Positions 10,480-18,920 of a DNA stretch of 64,000 bases are shown here, piece after piece; positions within the stretch are counted from its first letter, which is position 1, and each line of letters starts with the position of its first letter. Origin of the DNA: Candidatus Dormiibacterota bacterium (GTDB taxonomy: Bacteria; Chloroflexota; Dormibacteria; Aeolococcales; Aeolococcaceae); contig JBAPWO010000071.1 in assembly GCA_049283735.1 (NCBI GenBank), positions 19,221-83,220 of the forward strand. Reading direction: 5' to 3'. The notes under the pieces are model-generated. The model saw only the letters and a list, made by a program, of their open reading frames with translations. It ran no database searches and was not told the origin of the DNA. The translations under genes and the position numbers were made by a program.

Positions 10480-11175
10480 TCAGTCGTGCTGGCCTGCTCT
10501 GCGTTGCAGCAGTTCCGGCTTCCGGATCACAATGCGCCGGCCGTCCAGCTCGACATACCCCAGCCGCTCAAAGGCGTTGAGGACCTGGTTGACGCTCTGG
10601 CGCGAACCGCCAACCATGTTGGCGAGGTCCGACTGGGTCAGATGCAGGTCCAGCGCCCGTCCCCCCGGTACGGGGGTGCCGCGCTCGTCCGCGAGGCGGA
10701 GCAGAAGTTTCGCGACGCGACCGTGCAGGTCCAGGAACACCAGGTCGGCGGCCTGGTCGGTAAGCCGGCGCACCATCGTTCCCAGCGACCGCAGGAGACG
10801 GTCGACCAGCTCGGGCGAACCCCGAAGCGCTTCCAGCAACGCAGTTCGGCTGATCAGCAACACTGTCGTGGCTTCAACCGCCGCGGCCGATGCCGACCTC
10901 AGGCCACCATCGACCGTGGGCAGCTCGCCGAACACCGATGACGGTTCCAGGGTCACGAGCAGCATCTCGTCGCCGTCAGGCGAGCTCCGGTACACCTTGA
11001 CCAGACCGGTGACGACAACACACAGTGCGTCACCGGCGTCGTCCTCACGGAAGATGACCTCTCCGCGCCCATACGACCGCCGGACCCCCTTCTCGGCAAG
11101 CCGCTGCACCGCGTCCGGCGGAAGCGTCCCAAAGAGGGAGGTGTTCTGCAGGAGCGCCTCATCGCCGCTGGTCAT
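10480..11175 (-). CDS. Crp/Fnr-family transcriptional regulator (cNMP-binding plus HTH)
   Basis: Starts MTSGDEALLQNTSLFGTLP with GGGAGG upstream. cNMP-binding beta-roll GEVIFREDDAGDALCVVVTGLVKV; C-terminal HTH SQSDLANMVGGSRQSVNQVL. Trimmed from the tracked ORF. Confidence 0.85.
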   Translation of the reverse strand: MTSGDEALLQNTSLFGTLPPDAVQRLAEKGVRRSYGRGEVIFREDDAGDALCVVVTGLVKVYRSSPDGDEMLLVTLEPSSVFGELPTVDGGLRSASAAAVEATTVLLISRTALLEALRGSPELVDRLLRSLGTMVRRLTDQAADLVFLDLHGRVAKLLLRLADERGTPVPGGRALDLHLTQSDLANMVGGSRQSVNQVLNAFERLGYVELDGRRIVIRKPELLQRRAGQHD

Positions 11176-11251
11176 TCGAGGTGCCTCCCTAGTCATCCCG
11201 TTTACGGGCGCGCTCCGATGGCGCCGGCGAATTGTAGAGTGCCGGAACACC

Positions 11252-12001
11252 ATGGGTGATCGCGATTCGACGAGAGACGTGCTGGCGGATCTGACGCAGC
11301 TCGCGGCCGACCTCGGTCCGGTGCTCCGCCCCCGCCGCGACGAGGAGTTTCTGCAGGCAATCGTCGAAACCGCGCGCCTCGTCTTCGACGCCGCCGCCTG
11401 CTCGATCGCGCTCTTCGACGAGCGCGAGGAGGAGCTCGAGTTCCGTGTCGCCGCTGGGAGTGGCGCCGAGGCGACCATCGGCCTGCGTATCCCCGCAGAT
11501 CGCGGGATCGCGGGCTGGGCGCTCATGTCCGGACAGTCGATCGCCGTCGACGACGTCCGCCAGGATCCGCGCTTCGCCGCAGATGTCGCCGAGCGCACCG
11601 GCTACGTGCCCAACGCGATCATGGCCATGCCGCTGGAGAGCGAGCGCCAGACCTTCGGCGTTATCGAGGTGCTCGACCGTCAGCGGCGTGGCGGCGAAGG
11701 CGTCGACGACATGGAGTTGCTCGCCCTGTTCGCGCGACAGGCGACCCTTGCGGTCGAGACATCGCGGATCTTCTCGGACCTCGGACAGGCGATCCTCGAG
11801 TCGGCCGCGCTCGCGACCCAGCGAGACGACCTTCGCACCGCCCTCGAGCAGCGAGCGCGTCAGGCACCGCGACCCCAGGCGGAGCTTGCCGAGCTGGCGC
11901 TGCTCTTCCACGATCTCGGCGTCCTCGGGCCGGAGGAACGGCGTGTCGCCGCGCGCATTGCGGACGACTTTCTCGCGTACGCACGCAAGCAGCGCCGTTG
12001 A
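11252..12001 (+). CDS. GAF-domain protein
   Basis: MGDRDSTRDVLADL..., then GAF core AACSIALFDEREEELEFRVAAG...IAGWALMSGQSIAVDDVRQDPRF. Divergent from crp; its stop overlaps the next start (ATGA). Confidence 0.75.
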   Translation: MGDRDSTRDVLADLTQLAADLGPVLRPRRDEEFLQAIVETARLVFDAAACSIALFDEREEELEFRVAAGSGAEATIGLRIPADRGIAGWALMSGQSIAVDDVRQDPRFAADVAERTGYVPNAIMAMPLESERQTFGVIEVLDRQRRGGEGVDDMELLALFARQATLAVETSRIFSDLGQAILESAALATQRDDLRTALEQRARQAPRPQAELAELALLFHDLGVLGPEERRVAARIADDFLAYARKQRR

Positions 12002-12804
12002 AACCGGCCTGGTCGTGGCAGTTCGACCGGGCGACCCTGCAGCGTGTGCAGGCATCGCTCCCCACGGCGATCACCCGCGAGTGGGCGTGGGAGGGCAGCA
12101 CCGGGGCAGGCGTCAAGGTGGCGGTCATCGACAGCGGGATCGATGCTGCTTATCCCGGAGTCGGGCCCCTCGCCGGTGGTGCGGTGGTCGTCGCCGATGC
12201 CGACGCGCCACGAGGCGCTCGTGTGATCGAAGGGCCGCACGAGGATCTGTTCGGCCACGGCACGGCGTGTGCCGCGATCATTCGCCAGGCCGCGCCGGAT
12301 GCCGAGCTGTACAGCATCAGGGTCCTTGGCGAACGGCTGACGGGACGCGGCATCGTGTTCGCCGAGGGTATGCGCTGGGCGCTCGCCGAGGGCATGCAGG
12401 TGCTCAATATGAGCCTGAGCACGTCGCGCGCAGACTACTTCGGGGTGTTCCATGAGATCGCCGACGACGCCTATTTCCAGGGAGCGATGGTCGTCTGCGC
12501 CGTCAACAACGTCCGGGCGCCAAGCTATCCGTCGCAGTACGCGTCGGTGTTTTCCGTCGCGGCCCACGAGGGTCGGGACCCATTTCGCCTGGACTACAAC
12601 CTGTCGCCGCCGGTTGAATTCGGAGCGCCTGGGATCGACCTCGAGGTGGGCTGGCTCGACGGGAGGACCATTCGCGCGACCGGCAACAGCTTCGCGGCGC
12701 CTCACATCGCCGGATTGATCGCTCGAATCCTCGGCAAGCACCCGGCGCTGACTCCGTTTCAGATGAAGACGGTCCTGATGGCGTTGGCGGACAACGCGAG
12801 CTAG
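11998..12804 (+). CDS. subtilisin-like serine peptidase (S8 family), no signal peptide
   Basis: Catalytic-triad motifs VAVIDSGID (Asp), HGTACAAII (His) and GNSFAAPHIAGL (Ser). Confidence 0.85.
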   Translation: MKPAWSWQFDRATLQRVQASLPTAITREWAWEGSTGAGVKVAVIDSGIDAAYPGVGPLAGGAVVVADADAPRGARVIEGPHEDLFGHGTACAAIIRQAAPDAELYSIRVLGERLTGRGIVFAEGMRWALAEGMQVLNMSLSTSRADYFGVFHEIADDAYFQGAMVVCAVNNVRAPSYPSQYASVFSVAAHEGRDPFRLDYNLSPPVEFGAPGIDLEVGWLDGRTIRATGNSFAAPHIAGLIARILGKHPALTPFQMKTVLMALADNAS

Positions 12805-12862
12805 GTCCGCGTCTGCCGCTTGTCGCCAGGCTGACAGACAATGCACCCCGTTTTCGCTGACA

Positions 12863-13297
12863 ATGCGCGTCATGACCGACAAGAAAACACTGGTCAACCT
12901 GCTGAGTCGCAATCGACTCTTCGACGAGCTCAACAAGAAGGATGTCCTCGCGCTGATCGACTCGGCGAAGGAAGTCGACCACCGCGAGGGTCAGATGATC
13001 GTGGTCGAGGGGCAGCCTGGAGTCGGTTTTCATCTGCTCCTTGAGGGCACGGCGATCGTGAGCAGAAATGGCCGAAAGCTCCGGACGCTGGGGCCTGGCG
13101 AGACGTTCGGCGATATCGCGGTCATCGACGGAGGACCTCGCAGTGCGTCGGTGCAAGCAGCGACCCAGCTCCGCACCCTGTCGCTGCCGCCATGGGAGTT
13201 CAAACCCCTCCTCCTGGAACATCCCCGGATCGCCTACAGGCTGCTCGTCAAGCTCTGCTCGCTGCTCCGAGAAGCCGAGAAGCGGCCGCCGCTCTAG
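12863..13297 (+). CDS. stand-alone cyclic-nucleotide-binding domain protein
   Basis: 144 aa. cNMP-binding beta-roll IVVEGQPGVGFHLLLEGTAIV...LGPGETFGDIAVIDGGPRSASV. Confidence 0.8.
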   Translation: MRVMTDKKTLVNLLSRNRLFDELNKKDVLALIDSAKEVDHREGQMIVVEGQPGVGFHLLLEGTAIVSRNGRKLRTLGPGETFGDIAVIDGGPRSASVQAATQLRTLSLPPWEFKPLLLEHPRIAYRLLVKLCSLLREAEKRPPL

Positions 13298-13410
13298 TCG
13301 CCTCGGGCTGCGTTGTGGTCATGCGCCGGTCGGCGAGGGCCCGGTCGAATTCAAGGTGAGCTCCACTTACCTATGATGCACCGCGTCCACTGTGGAGTTG
13401 GGAGAACGCC

Positions 13411-13836
13411 ATGACAAGTCGGAGCGCGCAGGTCAACTTGCTCAGCGGCGTCGCGCTCTTCGCCGGGCTGACCAAGAAGGAGGCAAGGTTCGTCCTCCAA
13501 TTCATGCGCGACTACGACTATCCGGCTGGGAAGGTCATTGTCGAAGAGGGCGAGATGGGTGGACGTTTCTTTCTCATCGTGTCGGGCACAGCAGTGGTAA
13601 CGCGACGCGGACGTCGTATTCGCAGACTCGGTCCCGGCGATTCGTTCGGAGACATCGCGCTCATCGATGGAGGTCCACGATCAGCGACGGTGGCGGCGGA
13701 AACACCCGTCAGCACCTTGTCGCTGGCAGTCTGGAATTTCAAGGCAACGCTGCTCGAGAGTCCGAGCATCACCTACAAGCTGCTGCTGGCCCTTTGCGGA
13801 AGACTGCGTGACGCGGAGTTGAGCGCGCCGATCTGA
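13411..13836 (+). CDS. stand-alone cyclic-nucleotide-binding domain protein (paralogue of 12863-13297)
   Basis: 141 aa. LGPGDSFGDIALIDGGPRSATV... and the same C-terminal LLLALCGRLRDAE as its neighbour. Confidence 0.8.
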   Translation: MTSRSAQVNLLSGVALFAGLTKKEARFVLQFMRDYDYPAGKVIVEEGEMGGRFFLIVSGTAVVTRRGRRIRRLGPGDSFGDIALIDGGPRSATVAAETPVSTLSLAVWNFKATLLESPSITYKLLLALCGRLRDAELSAPI

Positions 13837-13859: not shown

Positions 13860-14550
13860 CTTGTCGCTGGGAGGCTGTCGCCGAGAAATGCCCGGGCAGC
13901 GCCGCGGACACCCAGCGCGCGGGGAGGTTCCGGAAGGCCCAAGCCGGCCGCGAGTTGAAGCGCCTGCTCGGCGAGCGTGATCGCCTCCGCGTAGGCGCTG
14001 TCATCGCCCTTCCGGCCTGCGAGTTCTACATACGCGGTGACGAGCTCTGCGCCCGGCTCCTCGGCTTCGAGCAACAGCAGCCCTCGGCGATGAGATCCCT
14101 CGAGGTCGGATCGCCGGCCATCTGAAGCACCGTCGACAGCGTGGTCAGCGTCCGCGCGACGGCCAGGGTGGCACCCGCATCCCGATACATCTCGAGCGCG
14201 GCCCTCGCCCCAGCCTGGCGTCCCGGTACGTGCGCCGCCTAGGCCCAGCGTTCCAGCAGGGCAGCCCGCTCGCGGTGGTTCTCAGGGGCGAGCTCGAGCG
14301 CCCGGGCGAAGCTTTCAGCTGGGGCCGCTCGAACTCCCGGCCCACGAGCGGCGTCGAACTCGTTCGGATGACGTCGGCGCCGAAGCGGGCCTGGGCGGCC
14401 AGTGGAGGTCAGACAGGGAGCGGCTCTGATTTCCCTTTGACTTGCACCGCCTCGGAGGCGATCGAAGATGAGCACGCGCTCGGTCTGGCGGTAGGTCGGC
14501 TCTGACACCGCCACACCGTTGATCGGGGCGATGCCCTGCAGGCGTGACAC
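13860..14550 (-). pseudogene. truncated remnant (C-terminal TPR region only) of a large transcriptional-regulator gene
   Basis: One continuous minus-strand frame gives TPR-like sequence (...ALELAPENHRERAALLERWA*GRHV...ARAALEMYRDAGATLAVARTLTTLSTVL...AYAEAITLAEQALQLAAGLG). It is interrupted by an in-frame TAG at 14239-14241 and has no N-terminal ATPase or DNA-binding part. Confidence 0.4.
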
Positions 14551-14921
14551 GGCAACTTTCCGCCGCCCTTCGCGCGCTCGGTGCGCGCGTCTACGTATCG
14601 TCGACCGAGACGCTTCGACTTGAACAAGACGGAACGTCTTTGGCCGATGCTTCGGTGTGGAACCCTGCGACGATGTTCGGCGGGCTGGACATCACGTTCA
14701 TCCCTGCTGGAACCACGGGATACGCCGACCTCGCTGAGCGTGCGCAGGGCATCGACATCGGCGGAGTGGTCGTCAGGGTGGCTGCTCTAGAGGACATCGT
14801 CAGGAGCAAGGAAGCAGCGAGCCGCGAGAAGGATCGCGTGGTCCTCCCGGCGCTTCGACGTCTTCTCGAGCGTACCGAGGACGAGCCCTACCAGAACACG
14901 CAAGGTGAAGCTTCGAAGTGA
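14544..14921 (+). CDS. hypothetical protein, possible nucleotidyltransferase-fold (MNT-like) protein
   Basis: 125 aa. The C-terminal VAALEDIVRSKEAASREKDRVVLPAL resembles the R-x-KD helix of minimal nucleotidyltransferases. No clear GS motif; weak call. Confidence 0.3.
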   Translation: MTRQLSAALRALGARVYVSSTETLRLEQDGTSLADASVWNPATMFGGLDITFIPAGTTGYADLAERAQGIDIGGVVVRVAALEDIVRSKEAASREKDRVVLPALRRLLERTEDEPYQNTQGEASK

Positions 14922-14927
14922 TGACAG

Positions 14928-15185
14928 TCAGGTCTGGATCTTCCTGCGCAGCCGCTCCACGGACTCGGCAAGGTCCCACACCATCTCGAGCGCAAGGTTG
15001 AGCTCGCTCGCCGTAGGCGGAAGCTCGTACACACGGTGATGACACGCGTTTGAAAGCGACTGCCAGGTCAGGGTCGCCCGGCCGCCAAGCTCTCGGTCGT
15101 TGAGCATGTCGCCGACGCAGAGCAGCTGACACCGCGTCGACGTTCGCTCCAGCCCCGGCGCCGTCACATCCCAGAGTCGCGCCAT
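14928..15185 (-). CDS. small hypothetical protein, last gene of the RloC-like operon
   Basis: MARLWDVTAPGLERTSTRCQLLCVGDMLNDRELGG... The reading frame stays open to 15422, overlapping the RloC-like 3' end, so the true start may lie upstream via a non-ATG codon. Confidence 0.3.
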   Translation of the reverse strand: MARLWDVTAPGLERTSTRCQLLCVGDMLNDRELGGRATLTWQSLSNACHHRVYELPPTASELNLALEMVWDLAESVERLRRKIQT

Positions 15186-15325
15186 GGCGAGTTCGAGTCC
15201 CTGTCGCGCGAGCAGCGCCGCTGCACGGGGCCAGAGGCCGGCGGTCGCAATGTCGTCGGCCCGGATGAGATCGCGCGCGGCTGAGACGAGCGCATGCGCG
15301 TCAGCGGTCGAGTTCGTGCGCGGCG

Positions 15326-17752
15326 TCAACGTTCGAGCACCTTCTTCGTCAACTGCTCGACGCTGCGTATGAAGTCCTTCGCGTCGCCGTACAGCTTCCC
15401 GCTGTGCGTTCCGCGATTGCACTCCCTGACCGCATCGACCGCCCAGGGGTGATGCTTCATCAGAAACGCGGTCACGTCGCCGCTTCGTTCCGGGTCATGC
15501 AAGAGCGCAAGTGCCAGCCACATGTTCAACGTCGTCGGCGTGGCGAGGATCGCGCGCACCGCCGCATACGTCTTGCCCTCGCGAAGCAGGCGCCGCGTGG
15601 CCGCAAGCGAGGACGCAGCCTCGAGTGCGAGCCTGCAGAACCCCGGGATAACGCGGAGCGCCTCTACGGGGACATCTCGGCTCATCGCAACCGCGAAGGC
15701 GTCGTCGATGTATCGCTGCACCGGATCCTGGATTCGGCGCAACTCGACGACCGACTGCTCACGCCGCACCACCTCGACAACGGTGGCGGCGATGTCGAGC
15801 GCACTCATCGCGTCGGCAAGACGCGTGTCGTGGGTGAGCACGACCACCTGCCGTTCCCGTGCGGCGCGCGCGAGCACGGTGGCGAGCCCGGCCACCTTGG
15901 ATGGATCCATCGCCTGCACCGGGTCATCGATGACCACGAACCGGAACGGCGACTCGGGCATCGATGCGCGGGGCAGGAACAACGACAGCGCCAGGCAGTT
16001 GAGCTCCCCCTGACTCATCACGCCGAGCGCCGAGCCATCCTCACCGTCGACCTTCACGTCGAGCGAGAGTCGGCGCTGCGTCTGAGCGCCCATCAGGCGC
16101 AGATCGCCGAGCGAGACGTTGCTGTCCTGGCGCAGCTCGGTCCAGTTCTCCTGCACGGCGCCTGCGATGGGACGAAACCGTTCCTCGCGCAGCTCGTCAT
16201 GCGCGTCCCTGAGCCATCGTTCCGCGTCTTTCAGGCGTAGGGCTTCGCCCTCGGCCTCCTTCGCCCTGCGCCCGAGCGGCAGCCACAACGCAATCGCATC
16301 GGCGGCGGGCCGCCAGGCGTGTTCCAACCGGTCGAGCTCGGCTGCGGCCGCCCTGCGCAGGTCGCCGACCGCGGCGATGAGGGGCGATCCGTGCGTCTCG
16401 AGGTGGCCGGCCAGCGCGAGCGCATCGTCGTCGTCGGCCACAGCAGCCCATCGCTCCCAGAGCTCGATCACGGGCGCGACATCGATGCCGGCGCCGGCGC
16501 CATCGCGAAGCGCAACCGGCGGCGCGGTCACCAGCTGCCGAGCCTGGCGCATCGCATTGGCGAGCATGTCGCGACCCTTGCGCACCGCATCCGCCGCTGC
16601 GCGCAGCGCGACCACCTGGTCGCGCGCCTGCACACGCCACTGGTAGGTCAGCACGCCCTCGGTGCCACAGACGGGACAGCCTTCTCCCTCCGCATGTGCG
16701 TGCACGTCGAGCGCCTGTTGCAGGAGTGAGGCGACCTCGTGCGCCCGGCCGGCGTCGGTACCTCGCAACCGCTCACCGGCCGCCTGCGCCTCGCGCAGGG
16801 CTGCGACCGCTTCGTTGAGTCGCTCTCGATCGAGCACGGGGAGCCCTGCCAGGTCGCGCAGCTTGCGAAGCACGCTGCGCTCGTCGCTCTCGGCCGCGCC
16901 GCCGATCGTACGCGCGACGGCGTCGAGATCCCAGGCCTTCGCGGAGAGCGAAGCAGCCACCAATCCCGCCCGTTCATCGGTGGTCCGGTCGAGCAGCGCG
17001 CGCAGCGCCGGCAGTGCGTCGCGCGCCTGCTTGACCAGATGCTCTCGATCGAGGCGCGTCCGCTGCAGCACCTGCTGCGCGGTTGCGAGGTCGCCGAGAC
17101 CGAGGATGCCGGCGAGCGCGTCGTAGAGCTTCGATTGCTCGCGATCGAGCGCGTGTTCGAGCTCGTTGTGTGAAAGGAGCGGCGGGTAGCCGGCCAGCTG
17201 CGGCGCCCAACCCAGCGCCTCGGCCGGCGCGGGCTTGCCATCAATGGTCAGTGTGGAGGCGTCAACCCCATCGGCTTCCTTCCAGATGCGGGCCACGTCG
17301 AGCGGCTGCTTGCGTCCGTCCACGATGAAGCGTGCGGCGACCCGCGTGTGCCGGTGGTGCAGGTTCTGCCAGCCGTCGCGCCACACCTTGACGCGCTGCT
17401 CCCAGCGCTGATTGGTGCCGAGCAGGACCATTTCGAGCGCCTCCGAGAACGAGGACTTCCCGGAGCCGTTGCGACCGACCACCAACGTGAGCCCCGGACC
17501 CGGGTCGATCGCGAGCGTCGTGGGCGGGCCGATCCCGCGGAAACCCTCGACCTCGATGGCGGTGAGATACACCCCACTGGGTGCCGCCCCCGCGCTACGG
17601 CTCGTCGGGGCGGAACCAGGCTCGCCGCGGAGCGCGGCCTCGACAGGCTCCGCGCCCTGGAAGGCGGCGAGGATCAGGTCCGCGGCCCCGCCCGCCGGCG
17701 GATTCGAGTCGATCCGATCAACCACCAGGCCGAGCAGCGCGGCGTCAGGCAT
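15326..17752 (-). CDS. RloC/PrrC-like protein: Rad50/SbcC-type ABC ATPase with CxxC zinc hook and C-terminal HEPN-like (anticodon-nuclease-like) domain
   Basis: 808 aa. Walker A LVVGRNGSGKSS, a long coiled coil containing EGEGCPVCGTEG, ABC signature MSQGELNCLALSLFL, Walker B FRFVVIDDP, H-loop LTHD. About 190 further residues carry R...N-x3-H (VRECNRGTH). Confidence 0.65.
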   Translation of the reverse strand: MPDAALLGLVVDRIDSNPPAGGAADLILAAFQGAEPVEAALRGEPGSAPTSRSAGAAPSGVYLTAIEVEGFRGIGPPTTLAIDPGPGLTLVVGRNGSGKSSFSEALEMVLLGTNQRWEQRVKVWRDGWQNLHHRHTRVAARFIVDGRKQPLDVARIWKEADGVDASTLTIDGKPAPAEALGWAPQLAGYPPLLSHNELEHALDREQSKLYDALAGILGLGDLATAQQVLQRTRLDREHLVKQARDALPALRALLDRTTDERAGLVAASLSAKAWDLDAVARTIGGAAESDERSVLRKLRDLAGLPVLDRERLNEAVAALREAQAAGERLRGTDAGRAHEVASLLQQALDVHAHAEGEGCPVCGTEGVLTYQWRVQARDQVVALRAAADAVRKGRDMLANAMRQARQLVTAPPVALRDGAGAGIDVAPVIELWERWAAVADDDDALALAGHLETHGSPLIAAVGDLRRAAAAELDRLEHAWRPAADAIALWLPLGRRAKEAEGEALRLKDAERWLRDAHDELREERFRPIAGAVQENWTELRQDSNVSLGDLRLMGAQTQRRLSLDVKVDGEDGSALGVMSQGELNCLALSLFLPRASMPESPFRFVVIDDPVQAMDPSKVAGLATVLARAARERQVVVLTHDTRLADAMSALDIAATVVEVVRREQSVVELRRIQDPVQRYIDDAFAVAMSRDVPVEALRVIPGFCRLALEAASSLAATRRLLREGKTYAAVRAILATPTTLNMWLALALLHDPERSGDVTAFLMKHHPWAVDAVRECNRGTHSGKLYGDAKDFIRSVEQLTKKVLER

Positions 17753-18251
17753 CCGGTGCCGATGGCGTGCTGGTCACACGTTTCAGGACGATCTCGTCGG
17801 GCGTCCTCCCGTGGTCGACGAAGTAGGTCGCGCGCCTCCCGTCCTTCTCGAGGTGGACGAGCGACCCGACCTTGAAGGTGTCGGCGGGCATGGTCAGCGG
17901 GGGCGTCCGCGACGGGCGGTCGACGTGAGGAGGTATGGCGGCCGGCGATTGCGGCGTCGCCACCGACGGCATGGGAACCATTGCGGCGCCGGGAGCGGCC
18001 GCGCCGCGCTGAACGTGCCGGCGGTGCACGGTCACGCCGACGGCGATCGCGGTGAGCACCAGCACCGGGACGCTGATGTACCAGTACGCGATACCGAGGG
18101 CGAGGACCACGACCAGGACGACGAAGCCCACGCAGCCGACACCGCCGGTCGCGTGGGCGGCCTGTCGGGCGGTGTGATGGGGTCGCCGCCCGTAGGTCGA
18201 AAGGCCCGCCCAGAATCCTCCCGGGAGACGATGGCCGAGGTAGAAGCGCAC
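17745..18251 (-). CDS. membrane protein (2 TM helices plus small C-terminal soluble domain), first gene of the RloC-like operon
   Basis: TM helices VGCVGFVVLVVVLALGIAYWY and ISVPVLVLTAIAVGVTV. C-terminal FKVGSLVHLEKDGRRATYFVDHGRTPDEIVLKRV. Its stop overlaps the RloC-like start by 8 nt (ATGCCTGA). Putative GTG start at 18251. Confidence 0.4.
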   Translation of the reverse strand: MRFYLGHRLPGGFWAGLSTYGRRPHHTARQAAHATGGVGCVGFVVLVVVLALGIAYWYISVPVLVLTAIAVGVTVHRRHVQRGAAAPGAAMVPMPSVATPQSPAAIPPHVDRPSRTPPLTMPADTFKVGSLVHLEKDGRRATYFVDHGRTPDEIVLKRVTSTPSAPDA

Positions 18252-18920
18252 GGCGCCATTCTGGCTCCCGCACGCCGTCACCTTCGCAGCCCGCCTTTGG
18301 CGACCGACAATGACCGTGTGCCCGAATCGACCGCCGCCCCGCCGCTGACAGAGCGCTTCGCTCACGCGTTGACCTTCTCCTGGCAGGTGCACGGCCGGCA
18401 GGTCCGGAAGAAGACCGGGATCCCGTATATGGCTCACGTCCTGGCCGTGTGCGCCCTGGCCCTCGAGCACGAGGCGGATGAGGACGTCGCCATCGCCGCG
18501 CTCCTCCACGACGCGGTGGAGGACTCGGAGGATGGCGCCGCGACCCGCGACCAGATCGAAGAACAGTTCGGCGACCGAGTGGCTCGGATCGTGATGGCCT
18601 GCAGCGACGCGATCGCCGTGCCCGGTCAGCCGAAACCGGACTGGCGGCAGCGCAAGGAGACGTATCTGCGCCACCTCGCCGACGCCGACGAGGACGCGCT
18701 GCTGGTGTCCGCCTGCGACAAGGTCCACAACGCCGGCTCGATCGTCGCCGATCTGCGCGCCGAGGGCGATGCCGTCTGGCAGCGATTCACGGTCAAGGAT
18801 CCGCGCCTCCAGCTCTGGTACTACGCCGGTGTCACGGAGATCCTCATGCGCAGGCTGCCCGGGCCGTTGACCGCGAAGCTCGGGCGCATCGTCGACGAAT
18901 TGAGCGCGCTGGCCGCCTGA
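18231..18920 (+). CDS. HD-domain phosphohydrolase (RelA/SpoT-like HD_4 family)
   Basis: YMAHVLAVCALALEHEADEDVAIAALLHDAVEDS, i.e. H...HD...D metal ligands. ATG at 18231 chosen; a GTG near 18316 is an alternative start. Confidence 0.7.
   Translation: MAEVEAHGAILAPARRHLRSPPLATDNDRVPESTAAPPLTERFAHALTFSWQVHGRQVRKKTGIPYMAHVLAVCALALEHEADEDVAIAALLHDAVEDSEDGAATRDQIEEQFGDRVARIVMACSDAIAVPGQPKPDWRQRKETYLRHLADADEDALLVSACDKVHNAGSIVADLRAEGDAVWQRFTVKDPRLQLWYYAGVTEILMRRLPGPLTAKLGRIVDELSALAA

What the first reader, a model, noticed from the sequence alone, without database searches (positions are those of the whole stretch)
15326..17752. RloC/PrrC-like anticodon-nuclease candidate: Rad50-type ABC ATPase with CPVCG zinc hook and C-terminal HEPN-like R...NxxxH tail
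The 808-aa product has an ABC head (Walker A GRNGSGKSS, signature SQGE, Walker B VVIDDP, H-loop LTHD) split by a long coiled coil. The coiled coil carries a CxxC hook (CPVCG, nt 16664-16678), as in Rad50/SbcC. About 190 residues follow the H-loop and end in VRECNRGTH, an Arg plus N-x3-H arrangement like the PrrC/RloC ACNase active site (nt about 15404-15427). This single-polypeptide architecture is the definition of RloC, a tRNA-cleaving abortive-infection/defence protein. Its upstream and downstream partners (a membrane protein and a small unknown protein) are not part of described RloC loci, which are usually linked to type I/III RM. The gene has host-like GC content and no RM genes are nearby.
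Basis: partly seen in the sequence, partly recalled or inferred. Interest (0 to 1): 0.8.

Follow-up and report, generated by a model that had tools for sequence, protein, structure and literature searches.

The report
Zinc-hook ATPase with paired HEPN modules
This is a conserved two-gene unit: a Rad50-like ATPase ending in a HEPN-type (RNase-like) domain, always followed by a small second HEPN protein; it resembles the tRNA-cutting defence protein RloC but belongs to a separate, undescribed family.

Summary
CPVC and the ABC motifs are at least 95% conserved in 77 homologues from several phyla.

- It carries an R707-x3-E711...H783 set (Arg and Glu invariant, His 95%), like the PrrC/RloC triad.
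- It fails RloC membership. Pfam AAA_13 scores 29 bits against a cut-off of 36 and matches ATPase segments only. The tail matches no Pfam or PADLOC model. Glu-His spacing is 71, not 36-52.

The main new result is the "small unknown protein" downstream (14928-15329, 133 aa).
- It follows the ATPase on the same strand in 76 of 77 loci, usually with overlapping stop and start codons.
- It is probably a paralogue of the tail.

The upstream membrane protein occurs only in close relatives. The host is Dormibacterota, not Actinobacteria. Copies also occur on Streptomyces plasmids and near defence genes.

Most likely this is an ATPase-gated heteromeric HEPN RNase. Its activity, RNA target and trigger are untested.

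The parts
15326..17752 (-). Gene for the 808-aa ABC/Rad50-like ATPase with a hook and a C-terminal HEPN-fold tail.
   Evidence: ORF. Pfam SMC_N E=1.7e-17 over residues 62-652. About 900 homologues of about 810 aa. At least 562 genomic loci.
17573..17752 (-). N-terminal extension of about 60 residues before the ABC head. Function unknown.
   Evidence: It is conserved in alignment A1, and tblastn matches start at residue 1-3 in other phyla. No Pfam or PADLOC hit.
17450..17476 (-). Walker A motif GRNGSGKSS (residues 93-101).
   Evidence: At least 95% conserved in 77 sequences.
16664..16678 (-). CPVCG putative zinc hook (residues 359-363) at the midpoint of the helical insert (about residues 200-520).
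   Evidence: C359, P360, V361 and C362 are at least 95% conserved across phyla. A weak NCBIfam Rad50 match covers residues 307-365. Zinc binding is not tested.
15827..16015 (-). C-terminal ABC lobe: signature SQGE (580-583), Walker B/D-loop VVIDDPVQAMD (606-616) and H-loop LTHD (639-642).
   Evidence: Conserved in at least 95% of sequences. This is the only part matched by Pfam AAA_13, the PrrC/RloC model (residues 575-645).
15329..15724 (-). HEPN-fold tail domain (residues 677-808), preceded by a beta-hairpin linker (652-676).
15620..15634 (-). R707-x3-E711 in helix 2 of the tail.
   Evidence: 100% invariant in 77 sequences. This is the same pattern as PrrC R320/E324 and RloC R692/E696 (PMC2610378).
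15404..15427 (-). R776...N779-x3-H783 at the end of helix 3 of the tail (an Rx6H arrangement).
   Evidence: H783 95%, N779 79%, R or K at 776 77%. H783 is the last residue of helix 769-783 in the model, the canonical HEPN His position (PMC3710099).
14928..15329 (-). Gene for the 133-aa free-standing HEPN-fold partner. The likely TTG start at 15327-15329 overlaps the ATPase TGA stop.
15192..15206 (-). R42-x3-E46 of the partner (helix 2).
   Evidence: E46 76/76 and R42 73/76; invariant in A2.
15039..15041 (-). H97 of the partner, the last residue of helix 3.
   Evidence: 76/76 invariant. Helix 79-97 in the model. Glu-to-His spacing is 50, inside RloC's published 36-52 range (PMC2610378).
17745..18251 (-). 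Upstream membrane-protein gene (about 128-168 aa) whose end overlaps the ATPase start by 8 nt. It is lineage-specific and not part of the core module.
   Evidence: tblastn finds it only in close Dormibacterota loci (L001-L024) and in no other phylum. Upstream genes differ or lie on the other strand elsewhere.

Best explanation
This is a two-gene module.

Gene 1 encodes a Rad50-like ABC ATPase. Its head is split by a helical insert that carries an invariant CPVC hook. Its C-terminus is a HEPN-fold domain with conserved R707, E711 and H783.

Gene 2 is translationally coupled to gene 1. It encodes a free-standing HEPN-fold protein with its own R42, E46 and H97, and is probably a paralogue of the tail.

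Inferred mechanism: the tail and the partner pair into a heteromeric HEPN ribonuclease with a composite active site, as in other HEPN dimers. The ATPase and hook hold this RNase off until a signal is sensed. By analogy with RloC, that signal may be DNA ends or DNA damage during infection. RNA cleavage (possibly of tRNA) then shuts down translation, giving an abortive-infection or stress response.

Shown here: the architecture, the motif conservation, the predicted HEPN folds and the obligate linkage of the two genes.

Inferred only: heterodimer formation, RNase activity, the RNA target, the trigger and the defence role.
For: Architecture and conservation:
- ABC and hook motifs are at least 95% conserved in 77 homologues across phyla.

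Folds:

Active-site geometry:
- Both His residues end helix 3 and both Glu residues lie in helix 2. These are the positions PMC3710099 gives for the HEPN active site.
- Both domains carry the R-x3-E...H triad that PMC2610378 showed to be essential in RloC and PrrC.

Linkage of the two genes:
- The partner gene follows the ATPase gene on the same strand in 76 of 77 loci. In 72 of them its start lies within -22 to +7 nt of the ATPase stop, commonly overlapping it by 4 nt.
- Profile-profile alignment of the tail and partner families aligns R/E with R/E and H with H over 105 columns (P=9e-4).
- In one Vicinamibacteria clade, tail H783 and partner R42 are lost together while the other residues are kept.

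Mobility and context:
- Distribution is patchy across Dormibacterota, Actinomycetota, Acidobacteriota, Gemmatimonadota and Chloroflexota.
- Copies lie on two Streptomyces plasmids next to NB-ARC/TPR and DUF6119 genes.
- Flanking genes vary between loci, with GmrSD, type IV restriction enzymes and transposases among the commonest families.
- One locus holds a decayed ATPase copy in an island rich in toxin-antitoxin genes.
- One variant has lost both His residues and gained a fused nucleotidyl cyclase.
Against: - No sequence profile (Pfam, NCBIfam, PADLOC, PDB) recognises the tail or the partner as HEPN.
- The canonical Rx4-6H Arg is only partly conserved in the tail (R or K in 77%) and is absent from the partner.
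- The tail-partner homology signal is weak (hhalign probability 23%).
- No complex was modelled.
- In the window and its Dormibacterota relatives the pair sits in conserved synteny among housekeeping genes, with host-like GC. This looks vertically inherited and is not typical of a defence island.
- There are no hits in 50,697 phage records.
- The co-loss of H783 and R42 is a single evolutionary event.
Confidence: 0.55

Rival explanations
1. It is a true RloC orthologue: a single-polypeptide, wobble-nucleotide-excising anticodon nuclease. The downstream gene would be incidental.
For: - The domain order and size match RloC, with an invariant CxxC and R-x3-E...H (PMC2610378).
- The DDP-type Walker B/D-loop region gives a partial AAA_13 hit.
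Against: - AAA_13 scores 29.4 bits against a cut-off of 36 and matches only ATPase segments. The tail matches no Pfam or PADLOC model, and no RloC or PrrC model is among the 25 best PADLOC hits to the full protein.
- Glu-His spacing in the tail is 71, against the published 36-52.
- The partner gene is present in 76 of 77 loci, usually with overlapping stop and start codons, so it is not incidental.
Confidence: 0.12
2. It is a housekeeping SMC/Rad50-like DNA-maintenance ATPase. The helical tail and the small partner would be non-catalytic adaptor or regulatory modules (kleisin-like, or nucleotide- or RNA-binding HEPN as in MtlR and sacsin).
For: - The best Pfam hit is SMC_N.
- PGAP assigns the GO term double-strand break repair.
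- Synteny is conserved, GC is host-like and neighbours are housekeeping genes in Dormibacterota.
- Non-catalytic HEPN domains exist (PMC3710099).
- Foldseek is not significant.
Against: - No Mre11/SbcD or kleisin gene was recognised among the genes flanking 43 non-redundant loci.
- Distribution is patchy: at least 562 loci among 185,579 species.
- The pair occurs on plasmids and as a decayed copy in a toxin-antitoxin island.
- R, E and His are invariant or nearly so at canonical HEPN catalytic positions in both proteins.
- Scores against Rad50, SMC and RecF equivalog models are far below their cut-offs.
Confidence: 0.15
3. It is a toxin-antitoxin-like arrangement. The small HEPN protein is the only active RNase (the toxin). 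The HEPN-like tail of the ATPase is a catalytically silent decoy that sequesters it until the ATPase senses a trigger and releases it.
For: - Some clades lose the tail His but keep the partner His.
- HEPN toxins are typically held in check by a bound protein (PMC3710099).
Against: - Tail R707 and E711 are 100% invariant and H783 is 95% conserved across phyla, which is hard to explain for a pure decoy.
- The clade that lost H783 also lost partner R42, which suggests shared rather than independent sites.
Confidence: 0.15

Closest known systems
RloC (Rad50-like anticodon nuclease; Pfam AAA_13; PMC2610378, PMC3458546)
   Same: - Size of about 800 aa.
- ABC head split by a helical insert with a central CxxC hook.
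- DDP-type Walker B.
- C-terminal HEPN-class domain with an R-x3-E...H triad.
- Usually not linked to RM genes.
   Different: - Below the AAA_13 cut-off, with no profile match over the nuclease domain.
- Glu-His spacing of 71 in the tail.
- An obligate, translationally coupled second HEPN protein that RloC lacks.
- An extra N-terminal extension of about 60 residues.
- Found mainly in soil phyla (Dormibacterota, Actinomycetota, Acidobacteriota), whereas RloC was described mainly from Proteobacteria, Firmicutes and Bacteroidetes.
PrrC (anticodon nuclease linked to the EcoprrI type Ic RM system)
   Same: ABC ATPase followed by a C-terminal HEPN RNase with the Arg-Glu-His triad (R320/E324/H356).
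   Different: PrrC has no coiled-coil or hook insert, is embedded in an hsd locus and is about 400 aa. Here there is no RM linkage, and a hook and a partner are present.
Other ABC-HEPN fusions listed by Anantharaman et al. 2013 (APECO1_4465; ERFG_01251, which has a 'classical' MNT-type HEPN)
   Different: I could not compare sequences because they are not available in the tools. No second HEPN partner or zinc hook is described for those families in PMC3710099.
Rad50/SbcC and defence SMC-like ATPases (Lamassu LmuB, MADS MAD3, HEC-01A)
   Same: Split ABC head. The CPVCG hook is Rad50-like (my recollection of the Pyrococcus Rad50 CPVC hook, not checked here). The best PADLOC hits are mad3, HEC-01A and LmuB, over the ATPase parts only.
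   Different: No Mre11/SbcD, LmuA/LmuC, TOPRIM or MADS partner genes are present. The effector here is a HEPN pair. All equivalog scores are far below their cut-offs.
HEPN RNases that act as dimers with composite sites (Csm6, Las1, HepT toxins; two unlike HEPN domains in Cas13)
   Same: [quoted passage not shown] Two unlike HEPN modules are encoded together, as in Cas13.
   Different: The two modules lie on separate polypeptides, one of them tethered to a hook-bearing ABC ATPase. The canonical Rx4-6H Arg is weak or absent, and an Arg from helix 2 (R-x3-E) is invariant instead.

Membership tests
RloC (as defined in PMC2610378) | ABC ATPase motifs: Walker A, signature, Walker B/D-loop and switch His. 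| tested here: met
   GRNGSGKSS, SQGE, VVIDDPVQAMD and LTHD are present and at least 95% conserved. SMC_N E=1.7e-17.
RloC (as defined in PMC2610378) | Helical insert with a central CxxC zinc hook between the two ABC halves. | tested here: met
   CPVC 359-362 is at least 95% conserved and lies at the midpoint of the insert at residues 200-520. The antiparallel coiled coil and zinc binding were not modelled or tested.
RloC (as defined in PMC2610378) | C-terminal Arg-X3-Glu-X36-52-His triad. | tested here: inconclusive
   The tail has R707-x3-E711 (invariant) and H783 (95%), but the spacing is 71, outside 36-52. The separate partner has R42-x3-E46-x50-H97, inside the range.
RloC (as defined in PMC2610378) | Sequence-family membership: Pfam AAA_13 (PF13166) at or above its gathering score, including the nuclease region. 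| tested here: not met
   29.4 bits against a cut-off of 36. The best stretch, residues 575-645, matches model positions 496-573 of 713. The tail alone gives no hit at E<=10 in Pfam or PADLOC.
RloC (as defined in PMC2610378) | The nuclease function is contained in a single polypeptide. | tested here: not met
   A second HEPN-fold gene is coupled to the ATPase gene in 76 of 77 loci. This is genomic evidence only.
RloC (as defined in PMC2610378) | tRNA anticodon cleavage with wobble-nucleotide excision. | not testable with these tools
   Needs biochemistry.
HEPN superfamily (PMC3710099) | Four-helix up-down core fold. | tested here: met
HEPN superfamily (PMC3710099) | Rx4-6H motif at the end of helix 3. 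| tested here: inconclusive
   The His is at the end of helix 3 in both proteins. The tail has R776-x6-H783 in the window, but position 776 is R or K in only 77% of sequences. The partner has no Arg at positions -5 to -7, only a variable R or N at -3.
HEPN superfamily (PMC3710099) | Conserved acidic residue in helix 2, close to the His. | tested here: met
   E711 (100%) lies in helix 696-724, and E46 (100%) lies in helix 32-56.
HEPN superfamily (PMC3710099) | Profile match to a described HEPN family. | tested here: not met
   No Pfam, NCBIfam, PADLOC or PDB-sequence hit for the tail or the partner. One homologue carries a UniRef name beginning 'HEPN domai'.
Rad50/SbcC DNA-repair ATPases | Adjacent Mre11/SbcD nuclease gene, and a score above the family cut-off. 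| tested here: not met
   No recurrent flanking family in 43 loci. Rad50 models score 16-20 bits against cut-offs of 454-1000.
Lamassu (LmuB), MADS (MAD3) and HEC-01 | The system's partner genes (LmuA/LmuC; MAD genes; a TOPRIM protein). | tested here: not met
   PADLOC hits cover only ATPase segments. The neighbouring genes give no PADLOC hits in the window, and no such partner recurs in other loci.

The most novel reading that the evidence does not exclude
This is a previously undescribed defence family, widespread in soil phyla. A zinc-hook Rad50-like ATPase senses a DNA signal and switches on a heteromeric HEPN RNase. That RNase is built from the ATPase's own tail plus a paralogous free-standing subunit, with an asymmetric composite active site (helix-2 Arg/Glu plus helix-3 His from each). 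The family also has effector-swapped variants, such as the cyclase fusion in L050.
Probability: 0.4. Interest if true: 0.7.

Novelty: new variant of a known kind. Interest (0 to 1): 0.6.

Why it matters
ABC-ATPase-gated HEPN RNases (PrrC, RloC) are classic abortive-infection tools. How the ATPase controls the nuclease is still unclear, and no solved structure of either turned up in the PDB sequence search made with this ATPase.

This family splits the nuclease into a tethered HEPN module and a free one. If they form a composite site, assembly and release of the free subunit would be a simple, testable switching mechanism.

The family is large: about 890 clusters at 50% identity for the tail, and more than 1,250 partner proteins. 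It matches no Pfam or PADLOC family over the tail or the partner. It occurs in poorly studied phyla (Dormibacterota, Vicinamibacteria) as well as in tractable Streptomyces, including on plasmids, so experiments are feasible.

Tried and rejected
- Three-gene operon with the membrane protein: rejected, because the upstream gene is conserved only in close Dormibacterota relatives.
- A conserved third partner gene: a census of 146 flanking ORFs from 43 loci found no family in more than 3 of them.
- Sequence-profile assignment of the tail and partner (Pfam, NCBIfam, PADLOC, PDB hmmsearch, single sequences and profiles): nothing found.
- Foldseek of the tail against PDB: not significant.
- AFDB50 fold search: the library was unavailable.
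- HMMER search of 1.84 billion representatives with the tail profile: the 150 listed hits were all from the same family. This shows the domain is family-specific, but the weak end of the hit list, where partner proteins might appear, was not visible.
- Direct profile comparison with RloC/PrrC HEPN domains: not possible. No RloC or PrrC sequence could be obtained, the supplement of PMC3710099 holds only links, and Krishnan et al. 2020 is not held.
- The NTase-like ORF at 14544-14921 as an MNT-type antitoxin for the HEPN partner: rejected as a core component, because it is present in only 3 of 80 loci.
Full report
**1. The observation**

The minus-strand ORF 15326..17752 encodes 808 aa.
- GRNGSGKSS (residues 93-101)
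- CPVCG (359-363, nt 16664-16678)
- SQGE (580-583)
- VVIDDP (606-611)
- LTHD (639-642)
- VRECNRGTH (775-783)

Pfam SMC_N matches residues 62-652 (E=1.7e-17, above its cut-off), so this is an ABC head split by an insert of about 320 residues. GC is host-like.

A database search gave about 900 homologues, and the best 120 are nearly all about 810 aa. A scan of one genome per species found at least 562 loci. In 77 full-length homologues at 41-87% identity, CPVC, the Walker A Lys, SQGE, DDP and THD are each at least 95% conserved. The motifs are therefore real.

The named sources are Dormibacterota MAGs, not Actinobacteria.

The insert is rich in helix-forming residues but is broken by several Pro/Gly stretches. 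I did not model the whole protein, so the coiled coil is inferred.

**2. The tail**

Residues 652-808 match no Pfam, NCBIfam, PADLOC or PDB sequence, as a single sequence or as a profile.

An AF2 model from a 16-sequence alignment is confident (pLDDT 83, pTM 0.78). It shows a beta-hairpin linker followed by an all-helical domain.

Foldseek against PDB gives nothing significant (best E 0.44), although many sub-threshold hits are HEPN toxins. The fold call for the tail is therefore moderate, not strong.

Across phyla the invariant tail residues are R663, S667, D684, A685, C706, R707 and E711, with H783 at 95%.

H783 ends the helix at 769-783, and R707 and E711 lie in the long helix at 696-724. 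PMC3710099 assigns exactly these positions to the HEPN catalytic His (end of helix 3) and the conserved acidic residue (helix 2). R-x3-E...H is also the triad shown by mutagenesis to be essential in PrrC (R320/E324/H356) and RloC (R692/E696/H737) (PMC2610378).

**3. The downstream gene is the key finding**

tblastn and ORF mapping show a gene of about 120-135 aa downstream on the same strand in 76 of the 77 loci that have downstream DNA. In 72 of them its start lies within -22 to +7 nt of the ATPase stop, commonly overlapping it by 4 nt. In the remaining locus (L050) the gene lies upstream on the opposite strand.

In the window the usual ATG is ACG. A TTG at 15327-15329, overlapping the ATPase TGA, is the likely start, giving a 133-aa product from 14928-15329.

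The family has no Pfam hit and is annotated "hypothetical", except for one UniRef name beginning "HEPN domai".

Its invariant residues are R42, E46 (RQALE, helix 2), W89, H97 (last residue of helix 3) and E109. Its Glu-to-His spacing of 50 falls within RloC's published 36-52.

**4. What is not part of the module**

The upstream membrane protein (17745-18251) and the divergent HD_4 gene are found only in close Dormibacterota relatives. In other phyla the upstream gene differs or lies on the other strand.

A census of 146 flanking ORFs from 43 non-redundant loci found no family in more than 3 ORFs. The commonest families were:
- GmrSD_N and GmrSD_C (3 ORFs)
- ResIII plus Helicase_C (3)
- DUF3427 plus PLDc_2 (2)
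- DDE transposases (2)
- Peptidase_M78 plus HTH_31 (2)
- Type IV restriction enzymes (mREase_IV)

The core is therefore two genes, sitting in variable neighbourhoods that are sometimes defence-like.

**5. Mobility and variants**

- The pair lies on two Streptomyces plasmids, one of them conjugative, next to DUF6119, NB-ARC/TPR and a large ATPase or helicase. PGAP names the genes "AAA family ATPase" and "hypothetical protein".
- There are no hits in phage records.
- L081 keeps the partner gene behind an ATPase remnant in an island rich in toxin-antitoxin genes.
- In L049, L055 and L056 the tail has lost H783 and the partner has lost R42, while tail R707/E711 and partner E46/H97 remain. This co-loss hints that residues from the two proteins work in one site. 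It comes from one clade, so it counts as one event.
- In L050 both His residues are gone and a class III nucleotidyl-cyclase-like domain is fused to the ATPase. I identified that domain by eye from the sequence; the 3 Guanylate_cyc Pfam hits are on flanking ORFs, and this fusion itself was not scanned. It looks like an effector swap.

**6. Context in the window**

Within about 7 kb lie the following genes:
- A Crp-type regulator
- A GAF protein
- An S8 peptidase
- Two cNMP-binding proteins
- An HD_4 protein
- An SDR
- A zincin peptidase
- Fur

There are no RM, integrase or recognisable defence genes. In Dormibacterota the locus is syntenic from 64% to 87% identity. That looks vertically inherited and is the main argument against a typical mobile defence island in this lineage.

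**7. Mechanism**

Shown: a hook-bearing ABC ATPase fused to a predicted HEPN fold, an obligately linked second predicted HEPN fold, and catalytic-type residues conserved in both.

Inferred: the tail and the partner form a heteromeric HEPN RNase with a composite site, as in other HEPN dimers. The ATPase and hook gate this RNase as in RloC, where the zinc hook and a DNA-dependent ATPase govern the nuclease (PMC3458546). Activation leads to RNA cleavage and translation arrest. The RNA target and the trigger are unknown.

Rival explanations are a true RloC orthologue (0.12), a housekeeping SMC-like protein with non-catalytic HEPN modules (0.15), and a toxin-decoy arrangement in which only the partner is catalytic (0.15).

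**8. Comparison with known families**

It works like RloC but fails RloC membership:
- AAA_13 scores 29.4 bits against a cut-off of 36, over ATPase segments only.
- The tail has no profile match.
- The tail's Glu-His spacing is outside the published range.
- A second subunit is required by genomic evidence.

No paper in the searchable library describes an ABC/Rad50-HEPN protein with a separate HEPN partner.

**9. Verdict**

This is a new variant of the ABC-HEPN kind: a large, unannotated two-gene family with a tethered HEPN module and a free one. Interest is moderate to high (0.6). The biochemistry is entirely untested, and the tail's fold assignment rests on predicted structure.

Noticed in passing
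window 15317-15329 (minus strand): The ATG start used by close relatives of the small HEPN gene is ACG in this window. A TTG that overlaps the ATPase TGA stop is the only nearby in-frame start codon, so translation probably depends on coupling to the ATPase gene.
   Followed up: partly
L050:5881-8871 (+) and L050:5390-5872 (-): In an Acidimicrobiaceae MAG the ATPase is 996 aa. Its HEPN-like tail has lost the His, and a class III nucleotidyl-cyclase-like domain (identified by eye, not scanned) is fused after it. The HEPN partner lies upstream on the other strand and has Arg at the H97 position. This looks like an effector swap.
   Followed up: partly
L049, L055, L056 (Vicinamibacteria loci): The tail lacks H783 and the partner lacks R42 (Leu, Leu, Gly), while tail R707/E711 and partner E46/H97 are kept. 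The co-loss suggests a shared site. It comes from a single clade, so it counts as one event.
   Followed up: partly
L081:5589-8399: An intact partner gene follows a remnant of the ATPase (only residues about 506-745, then a frameshift). The region also holds an HNH_2 gene and a small ORF that looks PIN-like by eye (no Pfam hit). The island is rich in toxin-antitoxin-type genes (HicAB, UPF0175, DUF433, Uma2).
   Followed up: partly
L085 (Streptomyces sp. M92 plasmid pM92) and L086 (S. anthocyanicus conjugative plasmid): The gene pair is plasmid-borne. It is flanked by DUF6119, NB-ARC/TPR (STAND-like) genes and a roughly 1185-aa AAA ATPase/helicase. The same arrangement occurs on both plasmids, so this may be a larger conflict island.
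   Followed up: no
window 14544-14921 (+): A 125-aa ORF with weak nucleotidyltransferase-like hits (DUF2204 E=0.05, DUF6036 E=0.07) lies convergent to the HEPN partner gene. It recalls MNT-HEPN pairs, but it is found in only 3 of 80 related loci.
   Followed up: partly
window 10480-13836: A cluster of cyclic-nucleotide-related genes: a Crp-type cNMP regulator, a GAF protein, an S8 subtilase and two small cNMP-binding proteins. Any link to the cyclase-fused variant of the ATPase is unknown.
   Followed up: no
window 17745-18251 (-) and 18231-18920 (+): A small membrane-protein gene overlaps the ATPase start by 8 nt, and a divergent HD_4 (RelA/SpoT-type HD) gene lies beside it. Both are syntenic only within close Dormibacterota relatives.
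   Followed up: partly
L011 and L021: Contigs labelled Candidatus Acidiferrales and Saccharimonadales carry copies 82-86% identical to the Dormibacterota genes. These are probably binning or labelling errors in the MAGs.
   Followed up: no
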